A stretch of DNA of 64,000 nt, from NCBI GenBank assembly GCA_000002435.2, contig CM018791.1; one strand, 5' to 3'. Position 1 is the first letter of the stretch. The number at the start of each line of letters is the position of its first letter. Below are positions 3,627-60,316 of this stretch, piece after piece. This DNA comes from Giardia intestinalis (Eukaryota). The position numbers and the translations under genes were made by a program. The notes beneath the pieces are model-generated. The model was given only the letters and a program-made list of their open reading frames with translations, made no database searches and was not told the origin of the DNA.

Positions 3627-3867
3627 TTTCTTGTTTTAGGGTTAGTTTTTTAGAAAAGGCGCAAAATTCCGCGCGGAAACCGCACGAAGACCACAGGCGC
3701 ACACGTCGTGTAACGACAAAGTTCGTTGCGCATTCGCCTCTGAACACACTCTCCAGTTCTTATTGTAGCAGAGGCCACTTCGCCGTTCCACCCCAACAAA
3801 TTCACGGATTTCTTATTCACAAACACAGGAATCTGAGTAAAGCCACGGATCGTCATTCACAAACAGG

Positions 3868-33715: not shown

Positions 33716-34072
33716 TCACTGTCCCAAAACCACCTTCACAATGAGCTTGGCGGCCTCGTCGATGTGAGAAGATGCATAATTGTTCAGTGCGTTGATTTCC
33801 CTTGTAACACGCTCATCCAGGTCTTTCGATATCTGTACAATCTCTGCGGCATTCTTTGTTTGCAGCTCGACAAGCTTAGCCTCTTCTTGGCGCTGAAATG
33901 CCTCTATCTCCCTGTGGGCTCTATCCTTCGCCTCCTTCACAAGCTGTGCATTTTCTTCCCTCGCCTGGGCGATACGCCTCTTCCCTTGAGTCTCTGTTTC
34001 AAGCAACTTTTTGACCAGCTCTGCGTCCCTGCTCATATTTTGTTTTAAGATTAGAAATTGGTCTTTTGTCAT
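33716..34072 (-). CDS. V-type ATPase subunit G
   Basis: LVKKLLETETQGKRRIAQAREENAQLVKEAKDRAHREIEAFQRQEEAKLVELQTKNAA parallels the conserved LLQAEKEA...ARKYRQ..LKQAK...EI..Y..Q...L.EFEQKNAG pattern of Vma10/ATP6V1G; 118 aa, or 106 aa from the second Met. Confidence 0.7.
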   Translation of the reverse strand: MTKDQFLILKQNMSRDAELVKKLLETETQGKRRIAQAREENAQLVKEAKDRAHREIEAFQRQEEAKLVELQTKNAAEIVQISKDLDERVTREINALNNYASSHIDEAAKLIVKVVLGQ

Positions 34073-35787: not shown

Positions 35788-38700
35788 ATGGTGGTTTTTG
35801 CGGGACCCTTATCGGACTTGACTGTTATCTTTATCTCTCTTAGCGCCGTTCTACTATTTGGAGCCACTATTTACGCCTTGTACTTTATAATCCCCATTTT
35901 GTTGGCGAAGCTTATCCAAGCCATAGCAAATGTATACTTTCGTCTTTATACAAAAGGGTATCGAAAAGCCCGTGTACATGTCTCTTATTTTCGGTTGGGT
36001 CTTTTCATGCGTCGAATACACTTGCAGAGCGTTTACTTCTCAACAGCAGAGTACACTATATTCGTGGGAGATGTGCACCTTCACTTTTCTCTTCTCCGCA
36101 GGTCTGGTTTTCTCAGCAAGGTCCTCCAGGAACACATCATCAAATCGCAGACTAAAGATGCCCACAGCTTAACATTTCCTCTTTTCCCAGCGATGGTGCA
36201 CGTCACAGGGATCGATATACACCTGTACAGCCGAAAGCCCCTGCCCTATACGCCAACAGAGGAAGGTCTGCGACGATATATGGAGGAATACCAAAGCAAG
36301 CTAGCAAACGCAGCTGCACAGCGTAAGCTTCCTTTCTTCTTTAGAGTTTTTGGGCCTGTCAATTTGGATATTAGGGGTATACGTCTGGTACTGAGCAATC
36401 CATACCTTCGATGCGGTGTACGGGCTACAATTGGTTCAGCAAACGGAGTGCTTGGTGTCCACCAGGAAGCTGAGCTCTTCACATTCTATACATCTTACCT
36501 TGATCTCAAACTTCATAGCTTTAACGTTAATTTTATCGAAAATGAATTTTACAATCCAATCTTTGATCACAAGCGTCAGAACTTCTTTGAGAAAAAATCA
36601 TGCCTACCACTGTACAGTGGAAAGAACTCTTTGTCAGTTTCGATTCTATCTTCTCCGGTATCTCGCTTAACAGTCACCACAACCTCTGATCTTTCAAAGG
36701 TTTCTTTTCGACCTGGCCTTCACTCTTCCCAAGATAGGTCAGAAATCTACGATAAGTCGTTTCCCGAAGGAATTGTGTCCATCCGTTTGATTGATCCAAA
36801 AATAACCTATTCACCATGGCTTGAGCGGGAGAGGAGACGAGTCTTTTTGTCATTCTTTCCTGAGACATTTTTGCCCCGTCAGGTGTGGCCTCTTCCGTCC
36901 AACGAGGAGCTATTTTTTAGACCCACGTTAAACTACAAGATTTCCGTGATATTTGATACGCCAGGCACAATTCAGTATTGGTATCGTAATACAGATCAAC
37001 CGTATGATCCAGTGAAACATGACATTATACTGGCGTGGAAGAGGGCTCAGATGGAGTCGGCTAGGGTCTCTCAGCAGCTGCATGAATTCAAGGCCAACAG
37101 TACGATTAGTTGTGATAACAATACTTATACTGCTCAGTCCATTGTTGGTGATAGTGTGATAAATCAGGGTACTGTGCCAACTGGAGGTGCCACCAGCATG
37201 GACGATGGAGACTGCACGGAGTGTAGTACGGCGTATTCTATGTGCCCTATTACCACTTCTCCGATTAACTCTCCAGTAGAAGAAGCTCATGCTTTACTAA
37301 GCGGAAACTATTCAGCATCTGTGGCTCAGCTCCAGCCGGCACATAGTCGCAAAGGGTCCAATCTCTCTTCTCATGTGCGGATGACATCTTCCACCACATC
37401 CAAAGTTGTTCTAGATAGCATTGCAGGACTATCAAAGCGTCTTCGTACGAATATACAAGGGTCTCCCTTAATAGGGAGCGCTGTAGATGACTTTGAGGCT
37501 TTAGCGCACCGTAATAACCAGTTTCAAAGTGTTGCTAATCTGCAAACGGCCGTTTTCAACGACGACTTATTTGCTCAGTTTAACGTGGACTCAAGCACGC
37601 TTCAAATGGACAACTTTGAGGAACCCACGTGTAATCCTCAAAGCTCCAAGGACGAAGACCAGGCGCCTGAAGCTCAGACCCTTAGGCGGCCTCGCACACT
37701 ATGGTCCAATGTGTTTGGCAATACTATTCCTTTTGTTAATAGATTTATTCGATCCTCAACCTCTAAAGGTGAGCAGGAGTTCAATATCTTTGATAGCTCT
37801 GCTGGGGACAAAGATGCTACCAGTGCAGCACCTCCGCCCACCGTAGGAGCATATACATCCCCCCACGAAGGTATCTCCTTTACTTGCTCTACTGGCACCG
37901 TTATTCTTCTAAAGATGCCCGTCTTTTCGTACTTTCCTACGCGCACTAAAAAGATCAGCGCTTTCATACCTCATGTTTCAGCCAAGACAACGGTCATTGG
38001 GCAAGAATTTTTTGTCGCAGAGAACATCTCCTTTGTCTGGGATGAGCTTACGACAGGTACAGAGTATTCCGCTCCGACTAAGTGGAATGTCGGCTTTTTT
38101 GCAGAGAATCTTCGAGCGGAGCTAACTGGGGCTATAATTTCTCAGATTACGCACTTGCTTGGAGACCTCACAGAAGATGACAAGGACCTCCTTTCCTATT
38201 ATCGTAAGTCCCTTATTCCACTGATCGACAATAACACTGTTATCCTGGCACACGAGTTCCCTATAAGGGATAGGGCATATAACGTTTATTGCAATGCACC
38301 ACCAAACCGTCTGCAGACCATGAGGGAGGTCCAGTATTCCAAGACAAAGCGCTTTATCCCTGTAGAGATGGACTTTACCATCCGTGTAGTCAACTATGAG
38401 ATTGGTGTTGCCACAGCTGTCGACAACGTCTGCTCGTCATTACACCATCTCTCTGCGGTACAGCCTGTTCAGGATTTCCTCGTTCATAAATATTCTGTCG
38501 CGTATCACCGCTTATACTGTCAACACAAGATGTTAGCCGAGCATGACTTCAAGGAACTTCGACTGGTGTCTGCCCACCACTATGTTTACCATAATAATCC
38601 GTTTCTAAATATGTTCTGGCGCCTGCCTCTAGTTATTGGCGCCTCAAATCGTAGCATCTACTGTCTGCTCGATCTTACCATAGATGTCATCAACAATGAC

Positions 38701-41700
38701 TATGAGCAGGTGGCCAATATGCTTCATAAGGGAGATCCCATATCGAAGGATGTCCGTCCAAACCTTGTCTGGCTCAACACGCCATACAATGTGGCAGCAT
38801 CTTCGACTACTCGAAAGCGGCGATGCACATGTCTGCGGAGCAGGAAGAAAGGTCTGCGTACATTACCGCCGGTATCTGGGATAACACAGGAAACTGACAA
38901 TCTTCTTCCGTTAAAAGAAGGCTACACTCATTCGCGCTATCAGAGTACACACGGTTACGAGATTCTTGAGTCTAATACTAAGTCAGGGAAGAAAGGATCT
39001 AAATCCTACGATGAACTAAGTCTCGTTCCAGCATCTGTGCATTCTGGAACAAAATTGAGCTCTCTGCATGTACTACAGTTGCCACATACTGCGTCTTGGG
39101 ACACTCTAGGGACGTCCTCAACTAGTCTTCAACAGACTCCATATCCATGCACTGTTGACGAGTTTCTCAAGGCCTTTCTTTATGAAAGCCCAGATGCCAT
39201 AGATCATTGTGACCATAGAATAGAGCTTTTGAGAATAGCAAACGGCAAGAAGCATGCTAATTCCAACCCACTCACATATGAAGAGTATCTGTCATTGCTA
39301 ACATATTCTCCGCCAACTCATTCACGCCTCTTGTTTGCTGGTGTAGACCTGTCCTGCGGAATTGCCGTCCCACGCTTGCATAATCTCAATGCCTGTATTG
39401 ATGGAGGCACGGATGCCAAGGCACAGTTATACACCGTCCTAGATGTCAAATTGATCTTGAAAATGGCGTCGATCTATGTGGCTTGCACATCCACAAGCAG
39501 GCAGAGCGCCTTTCTTAAGAGGCTATATTCAGCGAAGAAGACTACTAACAAATCATTAACATCTCCTTTTGCTTCTGGCCCGTTACCCCGTACAGAACTT
39601 CGCATAGGAATGACACGAGATCTTGTTTTAGATGCACACTTGGATACACGTGTCACAAGCTTTCTAAAAGAATCGGTACAGACACCACCATCTCAGATCA
39701 TTGACTCGTCAGTTTCTCCAAGCCTATCATACCCACAGGATAATAACCTGTCTCTCCAAATCAACGTAGCTCGGCCGGAGCTTCTTGTTAGCGGTTCAGT
39801 AATAGCCATATTTATGCATTTCCTGGAGAATCTGTTTTTGGCCCAAAGGTTTCCAATCTCTGATGCAGACTATATTATTATGCCCTTTAATTTACACTTT
39901 AAGAATCAACTTGCAAGAGCCTATGAGTCATATTATCTTTACCATCGCTTGAAAGCAAGCTATGCTAACGACCTATGGCTCGACTCAATTAAGCGTGCTG
40001 TCAAAGATAGTCCAGAAGTTGATCCCGTGGAGCGCCTCACAGATAGAGACATACTGATCAGATTGTCACACGAGTTTGTGCTAAGTGATCAAATGACGTA
40101 CTCGGATGTTATCTATCCTGTATCTAAGGCAGCCACTCTTTACCAACGATTCTCGCATTATATCACGTCTATGCGGCTCTTTTTAACTATCTATGCAGAT
40201 AGACCCATTGTATCAGTTACTGTTCACGAGTTTGCCGAGCTGCCACGTAGATTTTCATTTGCATATAACGATTTAAACACGGATTATAACAGACTCTTTA
40301 CTACGTCTCTCTCTGATCCACGGGGACTTATTACGTTCCACACACAAAAGCTGACATTTGCAATCGTCTCTTCCCGGTCTGTCACAACCCTCTCTGTCAG
40401 CACAACTCCGCTCCGAGGAGGATACCTGTCTCATGCACACTCTACTATCACTACAGGAGGCTTCGATATGCACGTCACTATGCCAAAAACACAGGACAGC
40501 ATCTACCCCTTGCCCACCAGAACGGCCTACTCAATGACCTTGAGCGCCCTCAAATTGTCTGCCTATCCTGAGTTCGTTGGGGTTCTTACCATGTTGATAA
40601 GGAACTTCTGTGTAACGTTTTTGGCTCCGTCATTTAATCACCTTCCTGCGTCATTCGTTGATCATAGTGCGGTCGGCAGTGATCATGAAAGTGCAGCTGA
40701 CGTAGATCATGGTAAGGTTTATGATAGAATTAGGCAGATGATAGCAGAGCGTATGCAGAAGGATTTAGAGCTTCTCACCAACAAATCGAATTTCTTGTTG
40801 CTTTGCAATTATCTCGAGGACTTGAACGACAGTGATCACACGGCGGTTTTGCACAGACTGTACACGAGGGGACCGTCAGCCACGCAAGCAAGACTAGATC
40901 AGGACTCATTTCTCTTAGATACAAGGACAGACTCATCGGGAAATCCCACTCAGAATAATAAGACAACCAACCGTCCTGATCTCACTTGCTCTGCCATATC
41001 ATCCTCCTCATTACCACTAGATAGTGTCATGTATGCACGCTGTCCAGACCGACTTCGCTATCTGCTCTTCTACAATGGATCTAATTGGTGCTTGACTGCG
41101 ACTCAAGTGGTCTCCTTTGACATATCTATTGGTCAATTTGATTGCTCATTGATTCACACTTTCTCGTCTAATTCTGCTTGCTCTACTCCTACGTCCCTGG
41201 TAGCCTCAGTTATCTCTAAGCGTGGGGTTGCTTGTTACATTAATAACCATGCACTAAAGGACAACACGCGGCTCCTTCTCAGATGCACTGTACCAGACAT
41301 CATTTTACGATTACGCGATCCTTTTTCCCAATCCACCTCTGTAGCTCTAAAGACAGCGGTGAACATAGTGGTGCATCAGACAGGGGACAACGCTGTCGGC
41401 AAGGCTGTCCAGTTGCTCTACTATGAACACCATAAGCATCTCCTCAGCACATTACTGTCTGGCCCTCGAGCGCAGACATCGGTGACGTCCATTCCGACCA
41501 TTGTAGTTTCACATGATAACGAGCTAACTTGCGCTAGTAGGCCCAAACCAATTTCGGGTTCACAAGAAGGTGTCCTGCCTGTGTTCAAGTCAACTACAAA
41601 TTACTGTCACCATGCCCCTGCATGCACCGCGACAGAATTCACTAGGCCTAGCTCTTTGAAGGCTTCGCCGGCAGAACAGTATCCATTACCTGCTGAATTA

Positions 41701-44700: not shown

Positions 44701-47700
44701 TACAATACGGATAGAGTTATGGACACACACCGCGAGTACACGTACCAGCAGCCGCCATCCCTTCTTATTTCGAACATCGCTGTCAACCTTTTTTCAATTA
44801 ATGGAATCTATAGAATTCTGTCGAACAAAGACGCACGTCAAACACTGTCTGTGCCTACAACCACCCCTTCTGTGAAATCAGCGCCTGTACCGGCTCATCC
44901 TGTTCTATCTCATCCCTACCTAGCCGAACTCCGTGCTTTTCAGGAGTACGAGCACACCAAGGTTGTTTCACAAGACACAGATTCCCCTGCAACTTTATCT
45001 GCGTACGATGAGCTTTCCATAACAGCAACTGAAGCTAGCACTCATTCATCTGGTGGCACTCTTGTGTCAATCGAACCATCAGCTGATAACGAAGTGCCAA
45101 AGGATGATGTGTGCGCTGATCAACTGCGTGATCAAGCCACCCTGGCCCTCAACAAAGACTATCCTTCATTTGATAACCAATTTTTCGCTAAGTCGTTCAC
45201 TAGTATCCAGCCTGGGGAAATAGATGCCAACGAGTTTGACACGTTAAGCGACACTCTCTTACTTACTAGAGAGCCAAAGCTATTTCTGGCTCCACTATTC
45301 GGAACAGATGCTTTACATGCCATACATTATGCTAAGCAGAACACTAATTCTATCTATTCGAATGTAGAGATTGCTGCCAATCTGATTCAGTCCAGGCCCG
45401 TGTCGTTAGACGAAGTTAACTCGCTACGTAGCAAGTGTAATATGAAAGGCCAGATCTCCATTAGGAAGTGGCTTCTGCATATCGCGAAATTTTCCCACAT
45501 TAGTGCAGAGCTTGTATTTCCAGACACCACAATCAACTATGCACACGCAGCTACAGGGGTCCCCATTGTTGTAGCCTCTTTCCCCTCAACAAGACTAACT
45601 ATGGACGCAATCCCACCATTACTGGACGTTTTCGCTCATCCATTTTCACACATAACATTTTTGACTGAAACCGTCTCGCTTGAGCTTTACTCCAAAGCCC
45701 ATTCTGTGCAGGCCCAAAATCCGCTAAGCTTTAATATGGATGACGCTAAACGCGAATACCTTATTGCTACCAAGTCTTTCGACGTGAACTACACGCAATC
45801 TGTGGTTCGGTTTGTTTCCACTCCTGGCCCTAACAAGGCAGATTCGCCAATCCATATGTTACTGGCACACTCAGTGGAAATTGTAGCGAGATCACTTGAG
45901 ATGCAGCTTTTTAATGCACATAACAGGCTATTCTCTCTTCTACGCGACGTCCTGATTGAGGCAAGGTTATATACTGGCTTTGCTGAGACGTACTCCCTTG
46001 TGCTATCTGCCTGGACAGACCATGCATTCTATCTGTTTCATGAATATACCCCTCAGTCATTTTGGGATTGCTTCTGCTGCGAGCTTCACTTCCTCAGAGA
46101 CCAGAAAGCGGCTGCTTCAGCAGCTACTGTGGTCGTTGATGCCGAAATACCCTTTGTCTCTAACTCGCGATCTGCTGAGTTACAAATCATTCAACGCCGC
46201 CAGCCAAAACGAGCCCGACCAAGTCCCTTCTCTGCCGGACGGTCGCTTAAAAGACAGAACTCCTATAGACAAAACCAGGATCGCGCCGCAAGCTCTTCCA
46301 ATTCCCACGAGACACCCAAGGATGGTACGTCGAGACAGAAGGACCCGCTATTAAATACGCTAAGTAATCTGTCTGGGAATCACGTTGTCTTTTTTCTTGC
46401 AGAGATTGATGAGTTTATGTTAGGAATCGATAGTCCCAGATTGGTCCAATGCAGTGCTAAGCTGTCAAAATTAACAGTTTCATTAAGCTTGCCGGGCCAT
46501 CAGACCGAACCTTTGCACAAACTGAGAACAATGACTAACAAGGAGGTATTCTCCAAAATATATTGTAAAACTCCTAATTCTTCGAAGATTCAAGTAGACT
46601 CTCTCCCCCTTCTGACAATTACACCCAATAGTGCCAATTTAGGGCGCATTAAGCACAGTCTCTACGAGGATGACGACAATTCAATGGTAGCCAACGGTTC
46701 TTCTGGCGCGCAGAAGAAAGAGGAAGATGATCTACAGCTGATTTCATCGATAGCTAGCCTTTTACTCACTAACAGAAAAGACCTAGCATTAGCCTTAACC
46801 TCTACTTCCTTGCACATTATTCTCCATTCGTCGTATGTTAACCAAGACACTATTCATGCAATCAATCTTCCCACAATTAGCTCCACCCTATTATTTAAAG
46901 ATTTGTCAGTTTTGACTGTACAGCTATCTGTTTCCTCATCCCAGAACTCCTTTTCTGGAGAGCTTTTTATACTACTTATCTCGTTGTTGAGGAAGCTTAT
47001 CAGTGACTTCGAGCAGGTACTCAGCACCACAAGGTCTCTAGCAGATACGGAGATGTGCCAACTGCTGAGGACATCCGGGGCAGGAGATAAGCTATCTCCT
47101 TCATTGCTATCCACGTTTGATGGCAGCCTCACCAATGTTAGTGGATTTGAAGACCGTTCCCTGCAAGCACCACACAAAGCTCCACTAGTCCGGCACTGTC
47201 TAATTGAAATTATCGTATCGCTGACTACGCTCAGCATTACCAGTACTAGCCATGTAAGTGTCTTTCTTCTCAAGGAGATCACGTTCAAGATGAATTATGA
47301 ATCACAACATGGAAAGAAGCCGGTACTATTTGATAAATTTGACAAACGAGGAAGCGCTTTCGGAGAGTTTGAGCTTACCTTTGACGACATTACACTGTAT
47401 ACGCACGTAAGCAAGAGCCCTGACGACCTGTATCTGGAGTACCATCCAGAGTACTTGATCTTCAAAACCAAGGACGTGGAGGGACTAACAAAGGTGCTGA
47501 ATAGCAGTTCCCAGGCATCTACTTATGTAATTCAAAATATATCCTCGCATATCTCCATGAGCTTTCAGTTTACAGGTCAGATCTCATCCAAAACAGCATC
47601 TCGGTTGACGCTTACAGTGCAAACATTGGGCCTCTTGATCCATCCCCTTTTATATAGTCATATAGTGAGTCTTATTAATGACGTCCAGGTCTGGAGGGAG

Positions 47701-50700
47701 TCATATGCATTGATACAGAGTGACTATATCCCGAAGATGAGTAAGAATAGTAGCTTATCGAGCGCTACTTTTGTAGATAGGCTACCCAGCACAACTATCG
47801 AGGGATGCCCCTCCAGCTTACAGCAAGGCTCTGCAGTCCGAGAGCCTTCCAAATATATTCAATTTACTATCGAATTTAAGGATATTGACATATCCATTTA
47901 CTCAGATTGCGGCCTCGAGTTCGTTCTGGCAGATTCTAAAGTGACTCTAGAAGGAACATGTGTTCGTGAGACCTTGGAGATGATTGTAGTAGAGTTGGCC
48001 ATAGATGAGCTGATAGGAAATATCCAGCTATTTATAGTTCCGCCTTATGTGGCGTCCCCTCCTTGTGATAAGAATAGAGATACAGAAGGAGACCCCTGGA
48101 GCCTAGATGCAGTACTAGGATTTTTGACTTCCATCACAGCAATCCCTACCGGGAATGTCTTTGACTTTTGTCTTTCGCTGAAGCTTATTTTCCAGACGGG
48201 AATACCTGAGGCTTCTATTATGAAAAAGTTCCAGTGCAATTATCCCAAGCTGCCCTTGGAGTCAGCCACGTCACAGCCAGCTTTTAATTCCAATGAGCTT
48301 TGCAACACCATTCAGCTAGATCTCGTTGTAGAAAGATTTGTGCTGGCTCTCAACGAGACGGCTGTCCCTCTCCTAGCAGACTTCTTCTTTACTAGTATCA
48401 GGTACATCTCAGGTACCTACTCTTCTACAGCCGATCAGTCATCAACAGATGCAATAAAGGTCACTGCGATCTTGCTAGATGAAACAATCCAGGCCTTGCT
48501 AGAAAGAGTTGAAGTGATGCGCCAGAAGACTCTTTACATGAACATAAAACTTTCTGTACTAAGATTGGGACTTGAAGTCTACGAATTTAGCGATCTTAAG
48601 GAAACTATAAGACAGACATGTGAGGGATATACAAGTATCCAGCCTTCAGCCTCCACATCAGGTACCAGGGTTGGAGCAACTTTTAAGGCGGATGGCAGTT
48701 CTGTAGAGGTGGGGGCAGCATTGATGATAGATGCTCCTAGTATTTCTTTTCAGACCCAGGTAGCCAAACGAACTGTTGGTAATCCTTTCACTTATTCATC
48801 TAGTCAATATGGACAGTATGGATCGGCAACCGGAGGCTCCATAGCGAATCTGCACGGCAAGTCAATCACATCTAAAGAGATTTTCCCCCCTGTACTCTCA
48901 ATTATTCTTCCACAACTGAATTTTGACTTCGAAGCATTCAGAGTCCCCAAAAACGATTTGAGCCTTTATAAAAACTTTGATGTTCTACGACCTTTTATTA
49001 CTTCTGACCTTCTCAAGATGAACGAGAATACAAAACTTTATATAAAACCAGCTACAATCTCGTTTATGGCTATAAATGCTACCTTGTACAGGCGAACTCT
49101 TTTCTTTCCACCAGAAGTGTTCCGCGTCCTTGCTAATTTCATTTCAAAGTGGCTACAGGTGATTGAAAAATATTCACTGAAAACCCCCTCAGATCATCAG
49201 ACGAAAAAATCTTCATATTCTCTTTCATCTGACGGTGACGGAGAGATTGGGATTGGGACTGGGACTGGTCCTGTCAGTAAAGCAGATCAGTCAGTATCCA
49301 TGAGTCAGACACAAGTACCCCAGGCATCTTGCCCTAGAGACCAGCAGAAAACAAGCAGGGCAGACAAAAGCAAGCACAGGAGCATAACTAGTCATACCCC
49401 AAAACAGAGCCAAGGCAGCCTAGTCTCGGATTTGGCTGGACTCTATGAAATACTTCAAGCAGGAGCATCGAGATCATCCACCTCGAAGCTTAATTTCCTG
49501 ACAAATATAGTGCCAGATACTTTCCATGCAGTCGTTGCCCTGGAAATTGAACAGCAGACATTTATTCTAGATTCCGTTGCACGCCCAATAATCGAGAACA
49601 TGGCCTCGTCTATTCTCGGGGACACATACAATGCTACCACACCTAGAGCTGTAAGGCATAGCCGAGAGTCTAGCAAGCTAGACTATGCTGCAGTTTCTCC
49701 AAGCAATACTAACACTCCAGATAACAGGTACACAAAGAGCACGGTCTTCAGCAGTATGGCGCAAGAGGATCTGCAGCCAGGTTATGATGTGCTGTCCTTT
49801 GTGTCTGTTACTATTCTTCCCATTAAGTTAGAGCTGCTAGGGGAAAACGAGGTAGGCACCAGAACTATTGAAGCGTCACTGACGTTTTCAGGCCTTAATG
49901 CACGGGTTATCCCGTATGCTATTCAATTTATAGCCGCTCTTTACAAGGCATCCACCGCAGGAACCGTAGATCACGCACATCCCGTTGTATTTTCGATTAA
50001 GAATGTTCTAATGAACATTACATCCACTGTCTCCATGGGAGAAAACCAGGTATCATATAATAACGTGCAGAATGTTAAGATAAATATGGAGTCGATCTCG
50101 TTGGAGCTGGCACTGCACAGCTTTGAGCATATGAGCGCAGTGAGTGCTATTTGGATCCACAACACCGAAAAGCTGCGTGGAATGGTTGCTTTCCGAGACA
50201 TCATGCATGCAACCAGTAAGAAGTGGTCGCAGGATGACGCCACAAAGGTGGATGGGCCTGCCGAGAAGTCCATTCTTGGAAAGTACTTATTAGACTTATC
50301 AATCACCTGCCAAAATTTGCATTTAACTGTTAACGATTTATCTTACTACAAACTTAACCCGATTTCTTCTGTGTTTCTTGCACAGAATCGTGCAATAAGA
50401 AATCGGCAGATGACCGAAAAGGACGCGTTGCTAACGCACGAGGATATTGTTGGCATGATCCTCGGTCATTCTGACACTGCGGAACCGGGGGCAGATAGGG
50501 ATATAGACAGAACTGGTCATAGAAGAGGTCGGTCAATACTGTCATCTGAAAATAGCGCGGAGGCATGCACTGGACTAAGAAACGAATCAACAGATACAGG
50601 GATTGCAGGGGCCGTTGGCAATAAACTAAGCTCAGGACAGGAGTCTTACGAGGAACATCCCTTGCATCACGTTACGCAAATGAATCTGGAGTTCGGTGAG

Positions 50701-52980
50701 GTCAATACAGGGTGTAAAACCCAGCTCACGGACCAGCAGCTTGAGCTTATACTTCAAATTACCGCTTTAGAGAAGCAGCAGAAGATGCGCGTGCCAGTCC
50801 TCGTTATGGAGTTCTCTAAAGATGACACTGCAGTGATATGCAATATCCGAAAGAAGGCAGCAAAACTCCAAGCAACAGTTTCCATTAAAAGCCTTCTTTT
50901 GAAGTATGGACATACTATCGCATGTAAGCTTGTGCTTCATGGAGTACGGCTATCCATTAAGAACTTCTCATACTCTGTCACCAATGTTTCTACCTCGGAT
51001 TCTGACAATTCTAAAGATCAGGACGTGCATTCCGCGATTACAGTCCCCAATATGCATTCAGAGGTTAATGACCATTCCTCTTCTGTTCTTCCAGTGCTGC
51101 TGTCTAATGAGCAGGTAATGGTAGCCATAGACGCCGCGCTGCATCTTGACCAGCTCATTGTTCATGTCTTTGAGGAGGTGGAACTAGCATATATGAATAC
51201 CTCTGGATGCTTTGTCAATCTTTCAGCCTGTCACATGATCTCAGAGAAGATATTAAGGAACCAATCACAGTATAAGAAGAACAAAACTTCGATTGGATTG
51301 GGAGTTAAAAGTGTTAATGCTTACATAGGGATGCAGGTAGCCACGGCAATCTATGGATCACTGCAAAGGGTGCTTTCAGATACCACTAAGTTGTGGAAGG
51401 AAGGAAAGGTCATTGTGCAAAACCATCATACCGCTTTATCGGTAGACAACATCTTACTGAAACTGAAGCGCTACATCTCTAAGGGCGAGAGGGATAAAGA
51501 GAGGATACGGAGACAGAAGAAATTAGCGAAAAGTGACGAATTATATTTTCAAGCAGTTCTATCAACCAACCCAACTCACTCTATGTCCACATCATACACC
51601 CTTGATGCAAAGTACTTGAAGTACTTCTCCAAGACGGCAAGGGTAAAGCTCTCTCTACAGATTGATACTATTTCACTACGGTTGTTCCAGGGCACTTTGT
51701 TGGACAATTACCATTGTGCAATCGTTGTCTCCAAGCTTGACTTAGTTCTCTCCTTATTGTATAACCCTGTGGATCACTCTACAAAAACAATCCCACTAAA
51801 GCTGCAGATCACGAAGAAGGCACTGCTAGAGAAGCTAGGCCACGAGCTGGTCACAAAGGATAAGCAGAAAACCCAGGCAGAGGCAACGGATACGTCTTCT
51901 ACAGGGAGCAACTACCCACCGCCCACTGCTCATCCAAGGGAAAGCGGTCGTAGAAGCCGCACTCACATAAACAATGCATGGATGATGGCATTTTCTCTTG
52001 ATGACTTGCAGCTTACTGACACACTTCCAGTTGTCCCAACTACATCTATAGCTCTATCCATAGCCTTTTTTACTCTGAGCTACGGGGAACGGCTGGGCCA
52101 AGGTGCAAGCAAAATTGCCATCAACCCTATCATGTTTGACGAGTCTGTTAACGCCGAAAAGGTAAAGCAGGGACTGGGATACATCCACAAGGGCCAGTAC
52201 CATGATTACATCCATGTTCTTGTCGCACGAAACGAGCTTCTAACAATCATGTCTTGTACAGAGGTCCTAAAGCTTGGCAGATCCTCATGGGATATCAATT
52301 ATAGCACGGTTTGCTCAGTGCTCAAACTCCCCGAGAGCTCTGGCCCCCTTTACATGCTTCAAATGCTATCGGGATTGGCGAAGCCTAACTTAAGTAATTT
52401 GACGGCGGGATCGCAATTTATTGCTGCGGTGGGAACCATCAATTCAATCCTGTCGGATATTCTAGCATTTAAGCGATCTGTCTCAAAGGCCCCCCTCCTC
52501 GATGTTAACAGGGGCGACGCCAGGGACATAGGTGCTATGGGGAGCTCCATTTCTGCTTCCAAAGAGGCGTTCCTCCACAGTAGCGTGGAATTCTCACCGG
52601 ACACTCTGTCGAGGCTACCGGCCGAGCAGTCAGTAGAGTCTAAGGAGGCAACGAAGACTATGGCGGCCAACATGATGCGCATCTACGAAAGTGAAAAGCT
52701 CTGGCTGCTAAGCCAAATGAACGTTGAAAGTGCAGACGCTCTGGTGCCGAACCTGGGATTGCTGGGGAAGGGGGGAAGTGATCTGTTGGGGTCAATAATA
52801 GGGAGTACATTGAAGAGCAATCGGTATCTCAATAAAGTCTTTACGGGAGTTACCGCGGGTCTTTACCACACAGGTGAGGAAGTTACAAATCTACTGATAT
52901 CACAGGCCAAGCAGGTGTTCTACACTCGTGCTCAAAATCTTCAAAAAATAATAATTAAAGACCAAACTCAAAAAGAATAA
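35788..52980 (+). CDS. giant 5,730-aa protein; candidate BLTP1/Csf1/Tweek-like bridge lipid-transfer protein (gene itself is certain, family assignment is tentative)
   Basis: Single uninterrupted 17.2-kb ORF. N-terminal TM helix (VIFISLSAVLLFGATIYALYFIIPILLAKLI) followed by YRKARVHVSYFRLGLFMRRIHLQSVYF, which resembles the Csf1/BLTP1 chorein-N start (RAKIKINV..LRVSLLGGRIHFKNLSV). Remainder is S/T-rich and beta-strand-like, with no P-loop, kinase or motor motifs. Confidence 0.45.
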   Translation: MVVFAGPLSDLTVIFISLSAVLLFGATIYALYFIIPILLAKLIQAIANVYFRLYTKGYRKARVHVSYFRLGLFMRRIHLQSVYFSTAEYTIFVGDVHLHFSLLRRSGFLSKVLQEHIIKSQTKDAHSLTFPLFPAMVHVTGIDIHLYSRKPLPYTPTEEGLRRYMEEYQSKLANAAAQRKLPFFFRVFGPVNLDIRGIRLVLSNPYLRCGVRATIGSANGVLGVHQEAELFTFYTSYLDLKLHSFNVNFIENEFYNPIFDHKRQNFFEKKSCLPLYSGKNSLSVSILSSPVSRLTVTTTSDLSKVSFRPGLHSSQDRSEIYDKSFPEGIVSIRLIDPKITYSPWLERERRRVFLSFFPETFLPRQVWPLPSNEELFFRPTLNYKISVIFDTPGTIQYWYRNTDQPYDPVKHDIILAWKRAQMESARVSQQLHEFKANSTISCDNNTYTAQSIVGDSVINQGTVPTGGATSMDDGDCTECSTAYSMCPITTSPINSPVEEAHALLSGNYSASVAQLQPAHSRKGSNLSSHVRMTSSTTSKVVLDSIAGLSKRLRTNIQGSPLIGSAVDDFEALAHRNNQFQSVANLQTAVFNDDLFAQFNVDSSTLQMDNFEEPTCNPQSSKDEDQAPEAQTLRRPRTLWSNVFGNTIPFVNRFIRSSTSKGEQEFNIFDSSAGDKDATSAAPPPTVGAYTSPHEGISFTCSTGTVILLKMPVFSYFPTRTKKISAFIPHVSAKTTVIGQEFFVAENISFVWDELTTGTEYSAPTKWNVGFFAENLRAELTGAIISQITHLLGDLTEDDKDLLSYYRKSLIPLIDNNTVILAHEFPIRDRAYNVYCNAPPNRLQTMREVQYSKTKRFIPVEMDFTIRVVNYEIGVATAVDNVCSSLHHLSAVQPVQDFLVHKYSVAYHRLYCQHKMLAEHDFKELRLVSAHHYVYHNNPFLNMFWRLPLVIGASNRSIYCLLDLTIDVINNDYEQVANMLHKGDPISKDVRPNLVWLNTPYNVAASSTTRKRRCTCLRSRKKGLRTLPPVSGITQETDNLLPLKEGYTHSRYQSTHGYEILESNTKSGKKGSKSYDELSLVPASVHSGTKLSSLHVLQLPHTASWDTLGTSSTSLQQTPYPCTVDEFLKAFLYESPDAIDHCDHRIELLRIANGKKHANSNPLTYEEYLSLLTYSPPTHSRLLFAGVDLSCGIAVPRLHNLNACIDGGTDAKAQLYTVLDVKLILKMASIYVACTSTSRQSAFLKRLYSAKKTTNKSLTSPFASGPLPRTELRIGMTRDLVLDAHLDTRVTSFLKESVQTPPSQIIDSSVSPSLSYPQDNNLSLQINVARPELLVSGSVIAIFMHFLENLFLAQRFPISDADYIIMPFNLHFKNQLARAYESYYLYHRLKASYANDLWLDSIKRAVKDSPEVDPVERLTDRDILIRLSHEFVLSDQMTYSDVIYPVSKAATLYQRFSHYITSMRLFLTIYADRPIVSVTVHEFAELPRRFSFAYNDLNTDYNRLFTTSLSDPRGLITFHTQKLTFAIVSSRSVTTLSVSTTPLRGGYLSHAHSTITTGGFDMHVTMPKTQDSIYPLPTRTAYSMTLSALKLSAYPEFVGVLTMLIRNFCVTFLAPSFNHLPASFVDHSAVGSDHESAADVDHGKVYDRIRQMIAERMQKDLELLTNKSNFLLLCNYLEDLNDSDHTAVLHRLYTRGPSATQARLDQDSFLLDTRTDSSGNPTQNNKTTNRPDLTCSAISSSSLPLDSVMYARCPDRLRYLLFYNGSNWCLTATQVVSFDISIGQFDCSLIHTFSSNSACSTPTSLVASVISKRGVACYINNHALKDNTRLLLRCTVPDIILRLRDPFSQSTSVALKTAVNIVVHQTGDNAVGKAVQLLYYEHHKHLLSTLLSGPRAQTSVTSIPTIVVSHDNELTCASRPKPISGSQEGVLPVFKSTTNYCHHAPACTATEFTRPSSLKASPAEQYPLPAELEDLLRKEKGDNALNDTVLRRAMYLQFVAPGTTHSQKRFSRQRTSVKTASASSITLYSTETDTYNEGGPDLAQGSTRLSRTMIATNVTDDFSLYSTETTVPSVQGKADSTDQASYDETSDSILLPDESPSRAFVNKTKESLWQRQAQKTDNTEPSCPPPVSVDKLAGIEEEPFPFLIPAHLFHSILDHRMVAVYTSAFSSFSQDSHAPSGLTLRPKSGPYMSVDRGPHQSKPVYNPTNLPVDMHIPTSGPAAVSVSITVEGLRTYIKPEGIYGALLLVSQILSPDFTVVANAYTFLTAESNKCMLDVKNIYLCETMLRTCYYAHLKQFIAEQKPSRFQYISNLMYSQGQLDLSQTGKKDGQEMKSNLTPPEHKQDRKDKEDNLDRICAFITLIASQSQLLSSLSMSHFGRATHHQLETTLMQMDGTATHWYLLFAPQVEQYKLTSKEMITLEVFLKDAEVVALADGLRTSVTLRMSQLSSAFALSNKIYSFNNRAYKMFCRLSDRFCPQTNMNKFRIQTGALLSLKANNLTLETIRGALCTIQGVSLKLNCGIFFSQGNRAASTGSRSSSLYLNTKKNPMKIDVATMRTDRSAKIDTDSVQTAHRLYSHTSTEATETTDKSATSQKGMDAFLKMLLNTLCVEANTVTLNIPIMLLQPLVILLAHYVGSFQRGMEAIVLSTVIAQLSKYILLRTFVPQRHLVWHALKPTSDMTESKSNLASNLYPEQSNAHLNSLLVILSQRDTNASFEAISKSIFSSFCKDLSKDPLVSLGSRVIRWMKRADCRHRDAEGGSQSLGSKLEFSIQSICQSQKSSLPVYKIKIDAGLKLSPLRSDAILFLALSLKEYSDTLSFSKDSVPKQMIFWQSPHFEAFRVPKEPVILYLNYITRHLLFNFWGAKAQAALANLQQGAGEPVTVKHMVQLSLSLHDEFAIQATSSTHLPFLTASASSPPCFKASVLKPKLQLSINERLSVTLAYKSLNASFSLPLFLLANVCRLNSAFYAYNTDRVMDTHREYTYQQPPSLLISNIAVNLFSINGIYRILSNKDARQTLSVPTTTPSVKSAPVPAHPVLSHPYLAELRAFQEYEHTKVVSQDTDSPATLSAYDELSITATEASTHSSGGTLVSIEPSADNEVPKDDVCADQLRDQATLALNKDYPSFDNQFFAKSFTSIQPGEIDANEFDTLSDTLLLTREPKLFLAPLFGTDALHAIHYAKQNTNSIYSNVEIAANLIQSRPVSLDEVNSLRSKCNMKGQISIRKWLLHIAKFSHISAELVFPDTTINYAHAATGVPIVVASFPSTRLTMDAIPPLLDVFAHPFSHITFLTETVSLELYSKAHSVQAQNPLSFNMDDAKREYLIATKSFDVNYTQSVVRFVSTPGPNKADSPIHMLLAHSVEIVARSLEMQLFNAHNRLFSLLRDVLIEARLYTGFAETYSLVLSAWTDHAFYLFHEYTPQSFWDCFCCELHFLRDQKAAASAATVVVDAEIPFVSNSRSAELQIIQRRQPKRARPSPFSAGRSLKRQNSYRQNQDRAASSSNSHETPKDGTSRQKDPLLNTLSNLSGNHVVFFLAEIDEFMLGIDSPRLVQCSAKLSKLTVSLSLPGHQTEPLHKLRTMTNKEVFSKIYCKTPNSSKIQVDSLPLLTITPNSANLGRIKHSLYEDDDNSMVANGSSGAQKKEEDDLQLISSIASLLLTNRKDLALALTSTSLHIILHSSYVNQDTIHAINLPTISSTLLFKDLSVLTVQLSVSSSQNSFSGELFILLISLLRKLISDFEQVLSTTRSLADTEMCQLLRTSGAGDKLSPSLLSTFDGSLTNVSGFEDRSLQAPHKAPLVRHCLIEIIVSLTTLSITSTSHVSVFLLKEITFKMNYESQHGKKPVLFDKFDKRGSAFGEFELTFDDITLYTHVSKSPDDLYLEYHPEYLIFKTKDVEGLTKVLNSSSQASTYVIQNISSHISMSFQFTGQISSKTASRLTLTVQTLGLLIHPLLYSHIVSLINDVQVWRESYALIQSDYIPKMSKNSSLSSATFVDRLPSTTIEGCPSSLQQGSAVREPSKYIQFTIEFKDIDISIYSDCGLEFVLADSKVTLEGTCVRETLEMIVVELAIDELIGNIQLFIVPPYVASPPCDKNRDTEGDPWSLDAVLGFLTSITAIPTGNVFDFCLSLKLIFQTGIPEASIMKKFQCNYPKLPLESATSQPAFNSNELCNTIQLDLVVERFVLALNETAVPLLADFFFTSIRYISGTYSSTADQSSTDAIKVTAILLDETIQALLERVEVMRQKTLYMNIKLSVLRLGLEVYEFSDLKETIRQTCEGYTSIQPSASTSGTRVGATFKADGSSVEVGAALMIDAPSISFQTQVAKRTVGNPFTYSSSQYGQYGSATGGSIANLHGKSITSKEIFPPVLSIILPQLNFDFEAFRVPKNDLSLYKNFDVLRPFITSDLLKMNENTKLYIKPATISFMAINATLYRRTLFFPPEVFRVLANFISKWLQVIEKYSLKTPSDHQTKKSSYSLSSDGDGEIGIGTGTGPVSKADQSVSMSQTQVPQASCPRDQQKTSRADKSKHRSITSHTPKQSQGSLVSDLAGLYEILQAGASRSSTSKLNFLTNIVPDTFHAVVALEIEQQTFILDSVARPIIENMASSILGDTYNATTPRAVRHSRESSKLDYAAVSPSNTNTPDNRYTKSTVFSSMAQEDLQPGYDVLSFVSVTILPIKLELLGENEVGTRTIEASLTFSGLNARVIPYAIQFIAALYKASTAGTVDHAHPVVFSIKNVLMNITSTVSMGENQVSYNNVQNVKINMESISLELALHSFEHMSAVSAIWIHNTEKLRGMVAFRDIMHATSKKWSQDDATKVDGPAEKSILGKYLLDLSITCQNLHLTVNDLSYYKLNPISSVFLAQNRAIRNRQMTEKDALLTHEDIVGMILGHSDTAEPGADRDIDRTGHRRGRSILSSENSAEACTGLRNESTDTGIAGAVGNKLSSGQESYEEHPLHHVTQMNLEFGEVNTGCKTQLTDQQLELILQITALEKQQKMRVPVLVMEFSKDDTAVICNIRKKAAKLQATVSIKSLLLKYGHTIACKLVLHGVRLSIKNFSYSVTNVSTSDSDNSKDQDVHSAITVPNMHSEVNDHSSSVLPVLLSNEQVMVAIDAALHLDQLIVHVFEEVELAYMNTSGCFVNLSACHMISEKILRNQSQYKKNKTSIGLGVKSVNAYIGMQVATAIYGSLQRVLSDTTKLWKEGKVIVQNHHTALSVDNILLKLKRYISKGERDKERIRRQKKLAKSDELYFQAVLSTNPTHSMSTSYTLDAKYLKYFSKTARVKLSLQIDTISLRLFQGTLLDNYHCAIVVSKLDLVLSLLYNPVDHSTKTIPLKLQITKKALLEKLGHELVTKDKQKTQAEATDTSSTGSNYPPPTAHPRESGRRSRTHINNAWMMAFSLDDLQLTDTLPVVPTTSIALSIAFFTLSYGERLGQGASKIAINPIMFDESVNAEKVKQGLGYIHKGQYHDYIHVLVARNELLTIMSCTEVLKLGRSSWDINYSTVCSVLKLPESSGPLYMLQMLSGLAKPNLSNLTAGSQFIAAVGTINSILSDILAFKRSVSKAPLLDVNRGDARDIGAMGSSISASKEAFLHSSVEFSPDTLSRLPAEQSVESKEATKTMAANMMRIYESEKLWLLSQMNVESADALVPNLGLLGKGGSDLLGSIIGSTLKSNRYLNKVFTGVTAGLYHTGEEVTNLLISQAKQVFYTRAQNLQKIIIKDQTQKE

Positions 52981-60257: not shown

Positions 60258-60316
60258 AAAGTGTATCCGTTTAGAAGAATTGTTTTTAATTTCAGCACTA
60301 GCAGTTCTGCGCCGCA

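What the first reader, a model, noticed from the sequence alone, without database searches (positions are those of the whole stretch)
35788..52980. 5,730-aa single-exon ORF with N-terminal TM anchor plus chorein-N-like motif: candidate BLTP1/Csf1/Tweek-type lipid-transfer bridge
This is the largest gene in the window at 17.2 kb, more than a quarter of the window. Residues ~8-40 form a TM helix. It is immediately followed by YRKARVHVSYFRLGLFMRRIHLQSVYF, which I align to the start of the Csf1/BLTP1 chorein-N-like region (WKRAKIKINVETLRVSLLGGRIHFKNLSV; recalled from memory). The basic K/R.A, the [IV].[IV] pair and the ..LR.(S/G)L(L/F)..RIH(F/L)(K/Q)(N/S)(L/V) stretch all line up. BLTP1-family proteins are likewise TM-anchored, 3,000-5,000+ aa, and made of repeating beta-groove units. 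The S/T-rich, beta-strand-like composition here, with no nucleotide-binding or motor motifs, is consistent. If correct, this would be an ER-plasma-membrane (or ER-peripheral-vesicle) bulk lipid conduit in a minimal endomembrane system.
Basis: partly seen in the sequence, partly recalled or inferred. Interest (0 to 1): 0.7.

Follow-up and report, generated by a model that had tools for sequence, protein, structure and literature searches.

The report
Giardia's unannotated BLTP1/Csf1 lipid-bridge protein
The 17-kb gene is real and encodes Giardia's very divergent, so far unlabelled copy of BLTP1/Csf1/Tweek, a membrane-anchored giant protein that in other eukaryotes forms a groove carrying lipids in bulk from the ER to other membranes; only its first quarter can be linked to that family with the tools used here.

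Summary
In detail: 35788..52980 (+) is one 5,730-codon ORF, identical to Giardia intestinalis WB GL50803_0090024 ("hypothetical protein"). It is syntenic in assemblages E and B and under purifying selection along its whole length (dN/dS 0.15).

- A profile of residues 1-430 from four diplomonad orthologs, scored against 1.84 billion proteins, gave 49 hits at E<=1e-3.
- Four hits are diplomonad relatives. All other 45 are Csf1/BLTP1 proteins, matched at their own N-termini (best E 7.9e-11).
- Profile-profile comparison gives 98.9% probability (E 1e-17).
- An AlphaFold2 model is confident for residues ~10-350. It shows a TM helix, an amphipathic helix and a long-strand beta-meander. Its best PDB match is the LPD-3 (worm BLTP1) structure, 9cap_A, at E 2e-21.

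Weak collinear matches above a reversed decoy extend homology to about residue 1611. Residues 1612-5730 (72%) could not be tied to the family: Pfam found nothing, the C-terminal profile had no PDB hit, and the C-terminal model was unusable (pLDDT 29). A clear family member (P0050) is also detectable only N-terminally, so this is weak counter-evidence.

Verdict: a new, highly divergent member of a known family. The family was already inferred for LECA, with a Trichomonas homolog reported. Interest is moderate.

The parts
35788..52980 (+). Complete single-exon gene, 5,730 aa plus stop. It equals GL50803_0090024 (Giardia intestinalis WB) and is the diplomonad ortholog of BLTP1/Csf1/Tweek.
   Evidence: identity; syntenic orthologs; dN/dS 0.15 overall, 0.06-0.21 per block
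35818..35892 (+). Transmembrane helix, residues ~11-35. It is the predicted membrane anchor, oriented N-terminus out (lumen) and C-terminus in the cytosol. There are no K/R residues before it and six in residues 41-62.
   Evidence: hydropathy; helix 10-54, pLDDT 85-92; aligned to the Csf1 TM segment
35896..35958 (+). Amphipathic helix directly after the TM helix, residues ~37-57. Levine 2022 describes this TM-plus-amphipathic-helix pattern for Tweek-family proteins but not for Hobbit.
   Evidence: muH 0.43-0.56; family feature from PMC7613979
35959..36039 (+). First beta-strands of the chorein-N-like domain, residues 58-84. RRIHLQ (75-80) is invariant in all four diplomonad orthologs aligned.
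   Evidence: strands E62-71 and E76-85 in the model
35788..37077 (+). Region with statistically secure homology to Csf1_N/BLTP1_N, residues 1-430. It is modelled as a long-strand beta-meander with interspersed helices.
   Evidence: profile search; hhalign 98.9%, E 1e-17; model and Foldseek hit to 9cap_A, E 2e-21; weak, correctly placed Pfam and PDB sequence hits
36802..36861 (+). Second family motif ITYSPWLERERRRVFLSFFP, residues 339-358. It aligns with Csf1 I-YGPWADRQR..LQ..FFP and with LPD-3 YGPWAEQQRFLIYSFFYP.
37078..37857 (+). S/T/P-rich insert, probably disordered, residues ~431-690. No secondary structure is modelled for ~437-648 (pLDDT about 25). The corresponding stretch of the distant ortholog P0004 is about 95 residues longer (666-1065).
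37873..40620 (+). Region with weak but collinear profile-profile similarity to Csf1 residues 534-995, Giardia residues 696-1611. Three blocks score 41.5, 38.1 and 30.6, against a reversed-decoy maximum of 28.9.
   Evidence: Spironucleus 371-630 matches Giardia 643-928 at P 1.2e-4
40621..52641 (+). Residues 1612-5618. This part is conserved among Giardia lineages and under purifying selection, but no match to any known family beats the reversed decoy at a proportionate position. It is inferred, not shown, to continue the beta-groove.
   Evidence: no convincing match; one 33.8 match, 1801-1854 vs Csf1 2391-2443, is far out of proportion; dN/dS 0.12-0.21; collinear with P0004
52642..52977 (+). 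Most constrained segment of the gene: a C-terminal helical element, residues 5619-5730, containing PNLGLLGKGGS. It is conserved as far as Spironucleus and is moderately amphipathic. It is the candidate contact with the acceptor membrane or a partner protein.
   Evidence: dN/dS 0.058; Spironucleus 3388-3438 vs Giardia 5619-5670, score 36.9 vs decoy 19; 36, 54, 71. The similarity to the Csf1 C-terminal motif is NOT significant.

Best explanation

Shown here:
- A single N-terminal TM helix (residues ~11-35) is followed by an amphipathic helix (~37-57).
- After it comes a chorein-N-like beta-meander that is homologous in sequence, and similar in modelled structure, to the lipid-entry end of BLTP1.
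- Detectable homology probably continues to about residue 1611.
- The whole 5,730-aa protein is conserved and constrained, and it is collinear end to end with the Spironucleus ortholog.

Inferred from what is established for the family (LPD-3 cryo-EM structure; Csf1, Tweek and LPD-3 genetics):
- The TM helix anchors the protein in the ER with the rest in the cytosol.
- The remaining structured blocks continue a hydrophobic groove, interrupted by disordered loops.
- The highly constrained C-terminal helices touch an acceptor membrane or an adaptor at a membrane contact site.
- Phospholipids slide along the groove in bulk.

In Giardia the plausible partner membranes are the plasma membrane or the peripheral vacuoles next to the cortical ER. 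The direction of flow and the partner membrane are unknown.
For: -: a profile of residues 1-430 from four orthologs, scored against 1.84e9 proteins, gave 49 hits at E<=1e-3. After the four diplomonad relatives (P0005, P0004, P0006, P0007), every hit is matched at its own N-terminus, and most are about 3,000 aa long.
- the hits tested carry Csf1_N plus Csf1_C, or BLTP1_N, _M and _C, at E down to 0.
- 44 of 45 hits are linked to Csf1/BLTP1 by phmmer. The 45th (P0050) is linked by hhalign at E 1.2e-40.
- hhalign of residues 1-390 against Csf1 1-493 gives probability 98.9% and E 1e-17, with two shared motifs.
- independent weak hits fall at the right positions. Csf1_N scores E 0.0045 and BLTP1_N E 0.17 on ortholog P0004. 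9cap_A is the top PDB sequence hit.
- the AF2 model has pLDDT 75-93 in most blocks of residues 10-350. Its Foldseek top hit is 9cap_A (LPD-3) at E 2e-21, followed by Vps13 (7e-8) and Atg2 (0.03).
- the collinear chain outside the N-terminus scores 170, against 49-98 for decoys.
- the protein is collinear end to end with the Spironucleus ortholog.
- purifying selection acts along the whole gene.
- (PMC7613979): a TM helix followed by an amphipathic helix is described as a Tweek-family feature, family length variation comes from disordered loops, and a homolog exists in Trichomonas.
Against: - No Pfam family reaches E<=1 on the Giardia protein itself apart from an irrelevant E 0.09 hit.
- Csf1_C, BLTP1_M and BLTP1_C are not detected. 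The C-terminal profile has no PDB hit.
- C-terminal hhalign matches are at decoy level.
- The C-terminal AF2 model has pLDDT 29, so no groove was seen beyond residue ~400.
- Period-2 amphipathicity is not enriched (z 0.6, against 1.4-2.6 in true members), although the test barely separates true members from controls.
- No internal repeats were detected.
- The N-terminal model used family sequences in its alignment, so it is not independent of the sequence homology.
- Localisation and lipid transfer are untested.
Confidence: 0.8

Rival explanations
1. Chimeric or neofunctionalised protein. Only the first ~430-1,600 residues are BLTP1-like (membrane anchor plus lipid-entry module). The remaining ~4,100 residues are a diplomonad-specific addition with a different fold and job, for example a tether or scaffold.
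For: - Nothing beyond residue ~1611 matches the family convincingly above decoy level.
- No Csf1_C or BLTP1_C signal was found.
- Beta-amphipathic periodicity is not enriched.
- The protein is longer than human BLTP1 and fly Tweek, and ortholog P0004 is 6,505 aa.
Against: - A clear family member (P0050) is likewise detectable only over its N-terminal ~1,000 aa, so loss of signal is expected in divergent members.
- Family length variation is attributed to disordered loops (PMC7613979).
- No other domain of any kind was found in the remainder.
- The lower-scoring C-terminal matches, although at noise level, are collinear and proportionate (4672-4805 with Csf1 2376-2489; 5114-5205 with 2628-2715).
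Confidence: 0.14
2. The protein belongs to a different RBG family: Hobbit/BLTP2 (which is also TM-anchored), VPS13, ATG2 or SHIP164/BLTP3.
For: - The N-terminal model also matches the Vps13 (E 7e-8) and Atg2 (E 0.03) N-terminal fragments, as expected within the superfamily.
- Hobbit also starts with a TM helix.
Against: - All 45 non-diplomonad hits of the exhaustive search are Csf1/BLTP1 proteins, and none was identified as belonging to another RBG family.
- The best structural match by about 13 orders of magnitude is BLTP1.
- The TM helix is followed by an amphipathic helix, as in Tweek and unlike Hobbit.
- The YxPWxxRxR...FFP motif is shared with Csf1 and LPD-3.
Confidence: 0.03
3. The protein is secreted or on the cell surface, and its N-terminal hydrophobic segment is a cleaved signal peptide.
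For: The hydrophobic N-terminus and S/T-rich composition resemble some surface proteins.
Against: - The hydrophobic region is ~40 residues within one continuous 45-residue modelled helix, far longer than a signal-peptide h-region.
- It aligns with the TM anchor of Csf1.
- The basic residues lie on its C-terminal side.
- The following domain is a cytosolic lipid-groove fold.
- Cysteine content is low (1.3%), unlike Giardia's Cys-rich surface proteins (the comparison rests on general knowledge).
Confidence: 0.01

Closest known systems
BLTP1 family: C. elegans LPD-3 (PDB 9cap), Drosophila Tweek, human BLTP1/KIAA1109
   Same: - An N-terminal TM helix followed by an amphipathic helix and a chorein-N-like beta-groove start.
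- A shared YxPWxxRxR...FFP motif.
- 9cap_A is the best structural match of the N-terminal model (E 2e-21).
- Giant size with long disordered inserts.

   Different: - Sequence identity is only ~16% in the aligned N-terminus.
- BLTP1_M and BLTP1_C are not detectable.
- At 5,730 aa it is longer than the 5,075-5,093 aa quoted for fly and human.
- Homologs of the LPD-3 partners Spigot and Intake were not looked for.
Fungal Csf1 (Pfam Csf1_N PF21678 plus Csf1_C PF25038)
   Same: - These are the best-scoring non-diplomonad relatives (E 7.9e-11).
- hhalign gives 98.9% probability over residues 1-390.
- Weak collinear matches reach Csf1 residue ~995.

   Different: - Csf1 is about 3,000 aa, roughly half the length.
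- The Csf1_C region and the conserved Csf1 C-terminal motif (PQLKELGNATPPLEWFGL) are not significantly matched.
Protist Tweek/Csf1 homologs reported by Levine 2022 (Trichomonas XP_001306426, 2,695 aa; Trypanosoma XP_011775923, 4,203 aa)
   Same: They show that the family exists outside opisthokonts, including in another metamonad, and was probably present in LECA.
   Different: Those were described as full-length HHpred homologs. The Giardia protein is more than twice the Trichomonas length and is far more divergent. I did not compare them directly because their sequences were not in hand.
Diplomonad orthologs: Spironucleus salmonicida SS50377_28052 (3,476 aa) and a Hexamita inflata fragment CAL6067223 (585 aa)
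   Same: They are true orthologs: N-terminal E 7e-25 and 5e-32. Spironucleus is collinear with Giardia from N- to C-terminus.
   Different: They are annotated only as hypothetical proteins. Spironucleus is 2,250 aa shorter, so much of the Giardia length is lineage-specific expansion.
Hobbit/BLTP2, VPS13, ATG2
   Same: They belong to the same RBG superfamily and share the fold at the N-terminus (Vps13 E 7e-8, Atg2 E 0.03 in Foldseek).
   Different: They gave no sequence-level hits. VPS13 and ATG2 lack a TM anchor. Hobbit lacks the post-TM amphipathic helix.

Membership tests
BLTP1/Csf1/Tweek | N-terminal transmembrane helix followed by an amphipathic helix | tested here: met
   Hydrophobic residues 11-35 and amphipathic residues 37-60 (muH 0.43-0.56). 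One helix at 10-54 with pLDDT 85-92. It aligns with the Csf1 TM segment. The family feature is taken from PMC7613979.
BLTP1/Csf1/Tweek | Sequence homology of the N-terminal region to Csf1_N / BLTP1_N | tested here: met
   In the profile search of 1.84e9 proteins, all 45 non-diplomonad hits are family members, with best E 7.9e-11. hhalign gives 98.9% probability and E 1e-17. Caveat: single-sequence Pfam scans do not reach the gathering score.
BLTP1/Csf1/Tweek | N-terminal three-dimensional fold: a chorein-N-like open beta-sheet groove resembling solved BLTP1 | tested here: met
   The AF2 model is confident for residues ~10-350. Its Foldseek top hit is 9cap_A at E 2e-21 over 399 columns. The model is not independent of the family alignment.
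BLTP1/Csf1/Tweek | Homology of the middle region (rest of Csf1_N / BLTP1_M) | tested here: inconclusive
   Collinear blocks 696-806, 1181-1294 and 1452-1611 match Csf1 534-995 with scores 41.5, 38.1 and 30.6, against a decoy maximum of 28.9. No proportionate match beats the decoy beyond residue 1611.
BLTP1/Csf1/Tweek | C-terminal region homologous to Csf1_C / BLTP1_C | tested here: inconclusive
   No Pfam hit, no PDB profile hit, and hhalign at decoy level. The control P0050, a clear member, is also undetectable there, so this negative result has little weight.
BLTP1/Csf1/Tweek | Continuous hydrophobic repeating beta-groove along the whole protein | tested here: inconclusive
   The C-terminal AF2 model (4 sequences) has pLDDT 29. 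The N-terminal model is unreliable beyond residue ~437. The periodicity and repeat tests were uninformative.
BLTP1/Csf1/Tweek | Amphipathic helices at the extreme C-terminus | tested here: inconclusive
   The last ~110 residues are the most constrained part of the gene (dN/dS 0.058). They are helical in the low-confidence model and only moderately amphipathic (muH up to 0.45).
BLTP1/Csf1/Tweek | ER anchoring, localisation at membrane contact sites, bulk lipid transfer | not testable with these tools
   This requires tagging and imaging, topology assays, and lipid-transfer or lipidomics experiments.
BLTP1/Csf1/Tweek | Partner subunits at the N-terminal end (Spigot and Intake in the LPD-3 complex) | not tested
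   Known from 10.1101/2024.06.21.600134. No search for Giardia homologs was made.
Hobbit/BLTP2 | Sequence homology to Hobbit/Fmp27 family regions; a TM helix without a following amphipathic helix | tested here: not met
   No Pfam hit to any Hobbit-type family. All 45 non-diplomonad hits of the exhaustive search are Csf1/BLTP1 proteins. An amphipathic helix is present after the TM helix.
VPS13 / ATG2 | A soluble N-terminus with the Chorein_N domain, plus VAB/ATG_C-type C-terminal modules | tested here: not met
   A TM anchor is present. No Chorein_N, VAB or ATG_C Pfam hit was found. Only superfamily-level structural similarity was seen.

The most novel reading that the evidence does not exclude
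Only the first ~1,600 residues are a BLTP1-type anchor and lipid-entry module. The other ~4,100 residues (72% of the protein) have no convincing match to any known family and grow to 6,505 aa in a related lineage. They could be a diplomonad-specific invention. One possibility is an exceptionally long groove that would make this the longest lipid bridge known. Another is new non-RBG modules that adapt the bridge to Giardia's unusual ER-peripheral vacuole-plasma membrane architecture.
Probability: 0.15. Interest if true: 0.65.

Novelty: new member of a known kind. Interest (0 to 1): 0.45.

Why it matters
Giardia has one of the most reduced endomembrane systems known, and how its membranes are supplied with lipid is poorly understood.

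I found no paper in the searchable library that links Giardia to BLTP1, Tweek or KIAA1109. The gene and its orthologs are labelled "hypothetical" in all four Giardia genome records seen and in Spironucleus and Hexamita.

Identifying GL50803_0090024 as the BLTP1/Csf1 ortholog has three consequences:
- It extends the family to the diplomonads, supporting its presence in LECA.
- It provides an extreme-divergence data point showing which parts of these giant proteins are indispensable: the first ~430 residues with two conserved motifs, and the last ~110 residues.

This is an annotation advance, not a new kind of system.

Tried and rejected
1. Direct Pfam scans of six overlapping segments of the Giardia protein found nothing relevant. 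The same scan on ortholog P0004 gave only sub-threshold Csf1_N and BLTP1_N hits. P0007 and P0050 gave none.
2. A full-length profile against family sequences with HMMER detected only the N-terminal ~430 positions.
3. The C-terminal profile (A3) against PDB sequences gave zero hits.
4. AF2 on residues 4640-5730 with four sequences gave pLDDT 29. I did not use it for fold search.
5. The apparent C-terminal motif (Giardia PNLGLLGKGGS, Csf1 PQLKELGNATP, BLTP1 LLSWAGKGIEP) was chosen by hhalign as its best local alignment. Its score of 12.3 equals the reversed control (12.2) and is below the column shuffles (up to 18), so I rejected it as evidence.
6. Period-2 (beta-amphipathic) hydrophobic-moment enrichment gave z 0.6 for Giardia, 1.4-2.6 for true members, and up to 1.9 for an unrelated control ORF. 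The test is too weak to use.
7. Self-comparison for internal RBG-type repeats found nothing above the reversed decoy. No tandem DNA repeats were found.
8. The afdb50 fold library was unavailable.
9. The hhalign match of Giardia 1801-1854 to Csf1 2391-2443 (score 33.8) beats the decoy but is far out of proportion. I treat it as a cross-match or chance, not as collinear homology.
10. The UniRef label '4Fe-4S ferredoxin-type domain' on the P15 ortholog appears to rest on a non-conserved Cys cluster in the disordered insert. I rejected it.
11. I ran no further search on the C-terminus. The limiting factor is the shallow diplomonad alignment (Neff 1.7), not the depth of the family profile.
Full report
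**1. Observation**

The window contains a single open reading frame at 35788..52980 on the + strand. It starts with ATG, encodes 5,730 aa and is by far the largest ORF in the window. The neighbouring ORFs are ordinary eukaryotic genes packed with very short spacers: a TrmO-like protein, a UCH ubiquitin hydrolase, a protein kinase, a PP5-like TPR phosphatase and a DEAD-box helicase.

The protein is identical to GL50803_0090024 (XP_037901796.1, UniProt D3KHJ2) of Giardia intestinalis WB, which is annotated "hypothetical protein". Orthologs of 5,722 aa (assemblage E, 83% identity) and 5,746 aa (assemblage B, 66%) lie between the same neighbours.

A codon-level comparison with the assemblage E gene gives dN/dS 0.15 overall and 0.06-0.21 in every 500-codon block. 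The lowest value (0.058) is in the last 230 codons. The ORF is therefore a real gene that is constrained along its whole length.

- A hydrophobic N-terminus (Kyte-Doolittle window above 1.6 across residues 1-51).
- The motif YRKARVHVSYFRLGLFMRRIHLQSVYF at residues 58-84.
- An S/T/L-rich composition.
- No nucleotide-binding motifs.

**2. What the N-terminus is**

Direct Pfam scans of the Giardia protein find nothing relevant. A first database search recovered only the Giardia orthologs and one very divergent 6,505-aa ortholog, P0004. P0004 is 26% identical in the best BLASTP block and 13-38% per 100-residue block, and it comes from a 55.5% GC contig of sequencing run SRR31929897. P0004 gave sub-threshold but correctly placed hits to Csf1_N (E 0.0045; residues 35-297 against profile positions 11-255) and BLTP1_N (E 0.17).

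I aligned residues 1-430 of the window protein with the assemblage E and B orthologs and P0004 (alignment A2). I scored that profile against every one of 1.84 billion representative proteins. It returned 49 hits at E<=1e-3.

- Four hits are diplomonad relatives: a Giardia fragment, P0004, a Hexamita inflata fragment, and Spironucleus salmonicida SS50377_28052. The named ones are all labelled hypothetical.
- The other 45 hits are matched at their own N-termini, and most are about 3,000 aa long.
- Pfam shows that the ones tested are Csf1 (Csf1_N plus Csf1_C) or BLTP1 (BLTP1_N, _M and _C).
- phmmer links 44 of the 45 to those proteins, and hhalign links the last one, P0050, at E 1.2e-40.
- The best non-diplomonad E-value is 7.9e-11 for the whole library.

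Profile-profile comparison of the Giardia-clade alignment with an alignment of 33 full-length family members gives probability 98.9% and E 1e-17 for residues 1-390 against Csf1 1-493. It also reveals a second shared motif: ITYSPWLERERRRVFLSFFP against I-YGPWADRQR--LQ--FFP. The same motif pairs with YGPWAEQQRFLIYSFFYP of the solved C. elegans BLTP1, which was the top (non-significant) PDB sequence hit.

**3. Structure of the N-terminus**

I ran AlphaFold2 on residues 1-1150 with 17 sequences. The model is confident for residues ~10-350, with pLDDT 75-93 in most 10-residue blocks. It shows:
- One long helix at residues 10-54.
- Then strands of 10-20 residues (62-71, 76-85, 89-99, 135-146, 191-202, 209-226, 232-251, 283-301 and others) interrupted by helices.

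Foldseek against the PDB puts the cryo-EM structure of the LPD-3 (BLTP1) complex, 9cap_A, first at E 2e-21 over 399 columns. It is followed by the Vps13 N-terminal fragment (7e-8) and the Atg2 N-terminal domain (0.03). This is the chorein-N-like lipid-groove fold, and BLTP1 is the nearest relative. The model is not independent of the sequence homology, because family sequences were in its alignment.

Within the long helix, residues 11-35 are uniformly hydrophobic and residues 37-60 are amphipathic. There are no basic residues before the helix and six in residues 41-62. That predicts a lumenal N-terminus and a cytosolic body. Levine (2022, PMC7613979) describes a TM helix followed by an amphipathic helix as a feature of Tweek-family proteins, in contrast to Hobbit. 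A cleaved signal peptide is therefore very unlikely.

**4. The rest of the protein**

Residues ~431-690 form an S/T/P-rich insert with no modelled secondary structure over ~437-648. The corresponding stretch of P0004 is about 95 residues longer.

Beyond the insert, HMM-versus-sequence searches see nothing. Profile-profile comparison that excludes the N-terminal region on both sides gives matches scoring 41.5, 38.1, 33.8, 30.6, 28.4 and 26.0. A reversed decoy reaches at most 28.9. The best collinear chain scores 170, against 49-98 for nine decoys. Those decoys share the same local hits, so they test collinearity rather than providing independent noise estimates.

Three blocks are proportionate and above the decoy:

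| Giardia residues | Csf1 residues |
|---|---|
| 696-806 | 534-644 |
| 1181-1294 | 681-777 |
| 1452-1611 | 842-995 |

I therefore consider homology probable up to about residue 1611. The Spironucleus protein matches Giardia collinearly from end to end. That includes 371-630 against 643-928 (P 1.2e-4) and the extreme C-termini (3388-3438 of 3476 against 5619-5670 of 5730; score 36.9 against a decoy of 19). The diplomonad proteins are thus full-length orthologs with a conserved C-terminal helical element.

I could not link residues 1612-5730 to Csf1_C, BLTP1_M or BLTP1_C:
- Pfam and PDB profile searches were negative.
- C-terminal hhalign matches are at noise level.
- A tempting shared C-terminal motif failed its controls.
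- The AF2 model of residues 4640-5730 from four sequences has pLDDT 29 and is unusable.
- A beta-amphipathic periodicity test and a self-repeat search were uninformative.

One control limits how much weight these negatives carry. P0050, an unquestionable family member, is detectable against the family profile only over its first ~1,000 residues.

**5. Mechanism**

Shown here:
- A membrane anchor and a BLTP1-type lipid-entry module.
- Probable continuation of homology to about residue 1611.
- Constraint along the full length of the gene, and conserved termini.

Inferred from the family (LPD-3 structure, 10.1101/2024.06.21.600134; Levine 2022):
- The TM helix sits in the ER.
- The cytosolic part forms a long hydrophobic groove interrupted by disordered loops.
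- The C-terminal helices engage an acceptor membrane or an adaptor at a contact site.
- Phospholipids move along the groove in bulk.

In Giardia the likely partner membranes are the plasma membrane or the peripheral vacuoles. That suggestion, and the direction of flow, are speculation.

**6. Comparison and novelty**

The family is known, and it has been proposed to date back to LECA on the basis of Trypanosoma and Trichomonas homologs. No paper in the searchable library links Giardia to BLTP1, Tweek or KIAA1109, or mentions this gene ID. All database labels are "hypothetical", apart from a spurious "4Fe-4S ferredoxin-type" UniRef name on the assemblage E ortholog.

I file this as a new, extremely divergent and unusually long member of a known kind. 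The membership features I could test at the N-terminus are met. Those for the middle and C-terminus are inconclusive, and none was tested and clearly failed.

**7. Verdict**

- Its interpretation is supported.
- Confidence that the N-terminus is BLTP1/Csf1-type is about 0.97.
- Confidence that the whole protein is a BLTP1-family lipid bridge is about 0.8.
- Interest is moderate (0.45). It is a useful functional annotation and an entry point to lipid transport in a minimal endomembrane system, but not a new kind of system.

Noticed in passing
L001:1277-20794 (contig SRR31929897_42507): A 6,505-aa ortholog (13-38% identity per 100-residue block along the protein) sits on a 55.5% GC contig. Its neighbours (a TM2-domain protein and a Sec23/Sec24-type protein) differ from the Giardia intestinalis locus. 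It appears to come from an unlabelled Giardia-like diplomonad present only in a raw sequencing-run assembly.
   Followed up: partly
L002:3001-20169 (assemblage E ortholog, residue ~476): UniRef names the P15 ortholog '4Fe-4S ferredoxin-type domain-containing protein'. The only plausible basis is CMECSTVCSVCP, which lies in the disordered insert. It is not conserved in WB (CTECSTAYSMCP), and Pfam finds no ferredoxin domain in the WB protein. The label is probably a spurious automatic one.
   Followed up: yes
window 53013-55034 (+): A 673-aa ORF starts only 32 nt after the stop codon of the giant gene. It has no Pfam match and is syntenic in assemblages E and B (673 and 684 aa). Its function is unknown, and I did not examine whether it is functionally linked to the giant gene.
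   Followed up: no
window 33716-34072 (-): A small 118-aa ORF on the opposite strand lies between the TrmO-like gene and the UCH gene. The ORF at the corresponding position in assemblage E carries V-ATPase_G Pfam hits.
   Followed up: partly
P0050 (3,168 aa, sequencing-run assembly, no locus fetched): This is a very divergent Csf1/BLTP1 family member from an unidentified organism. Pfam gives no hit at all, yet hhalign links its first ~1,000 residues to Csf1 at E 1.2e-40. It shows that divergent members of this family escape standard annotation.
   Followed up: partly
window 27613-30120 (+), 24251-27463 (-), 61912-63744 (-), 58396-59103 (+): Several ORFs of 235-1,070 aa have no Pfam match at E<=0.001. 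The 835-aa ORF at 27613 showed the highest period-2 amphipathicity among the control ORFs (z 1.9).
   Followed up: no
window 59679-60386 (-) / 60208-61926 (+) / 61912-63744 (-); also 2691-3626 (-) / 2950-3597 (+): Mechanically listed ORFs overlap one another here. One example is the DEAD-box helicase ORF, whose 3' end overlaps a convergent 610-aa ORF by 15 nt. Some of these ORFs are probably not genes.
   Followed up: no
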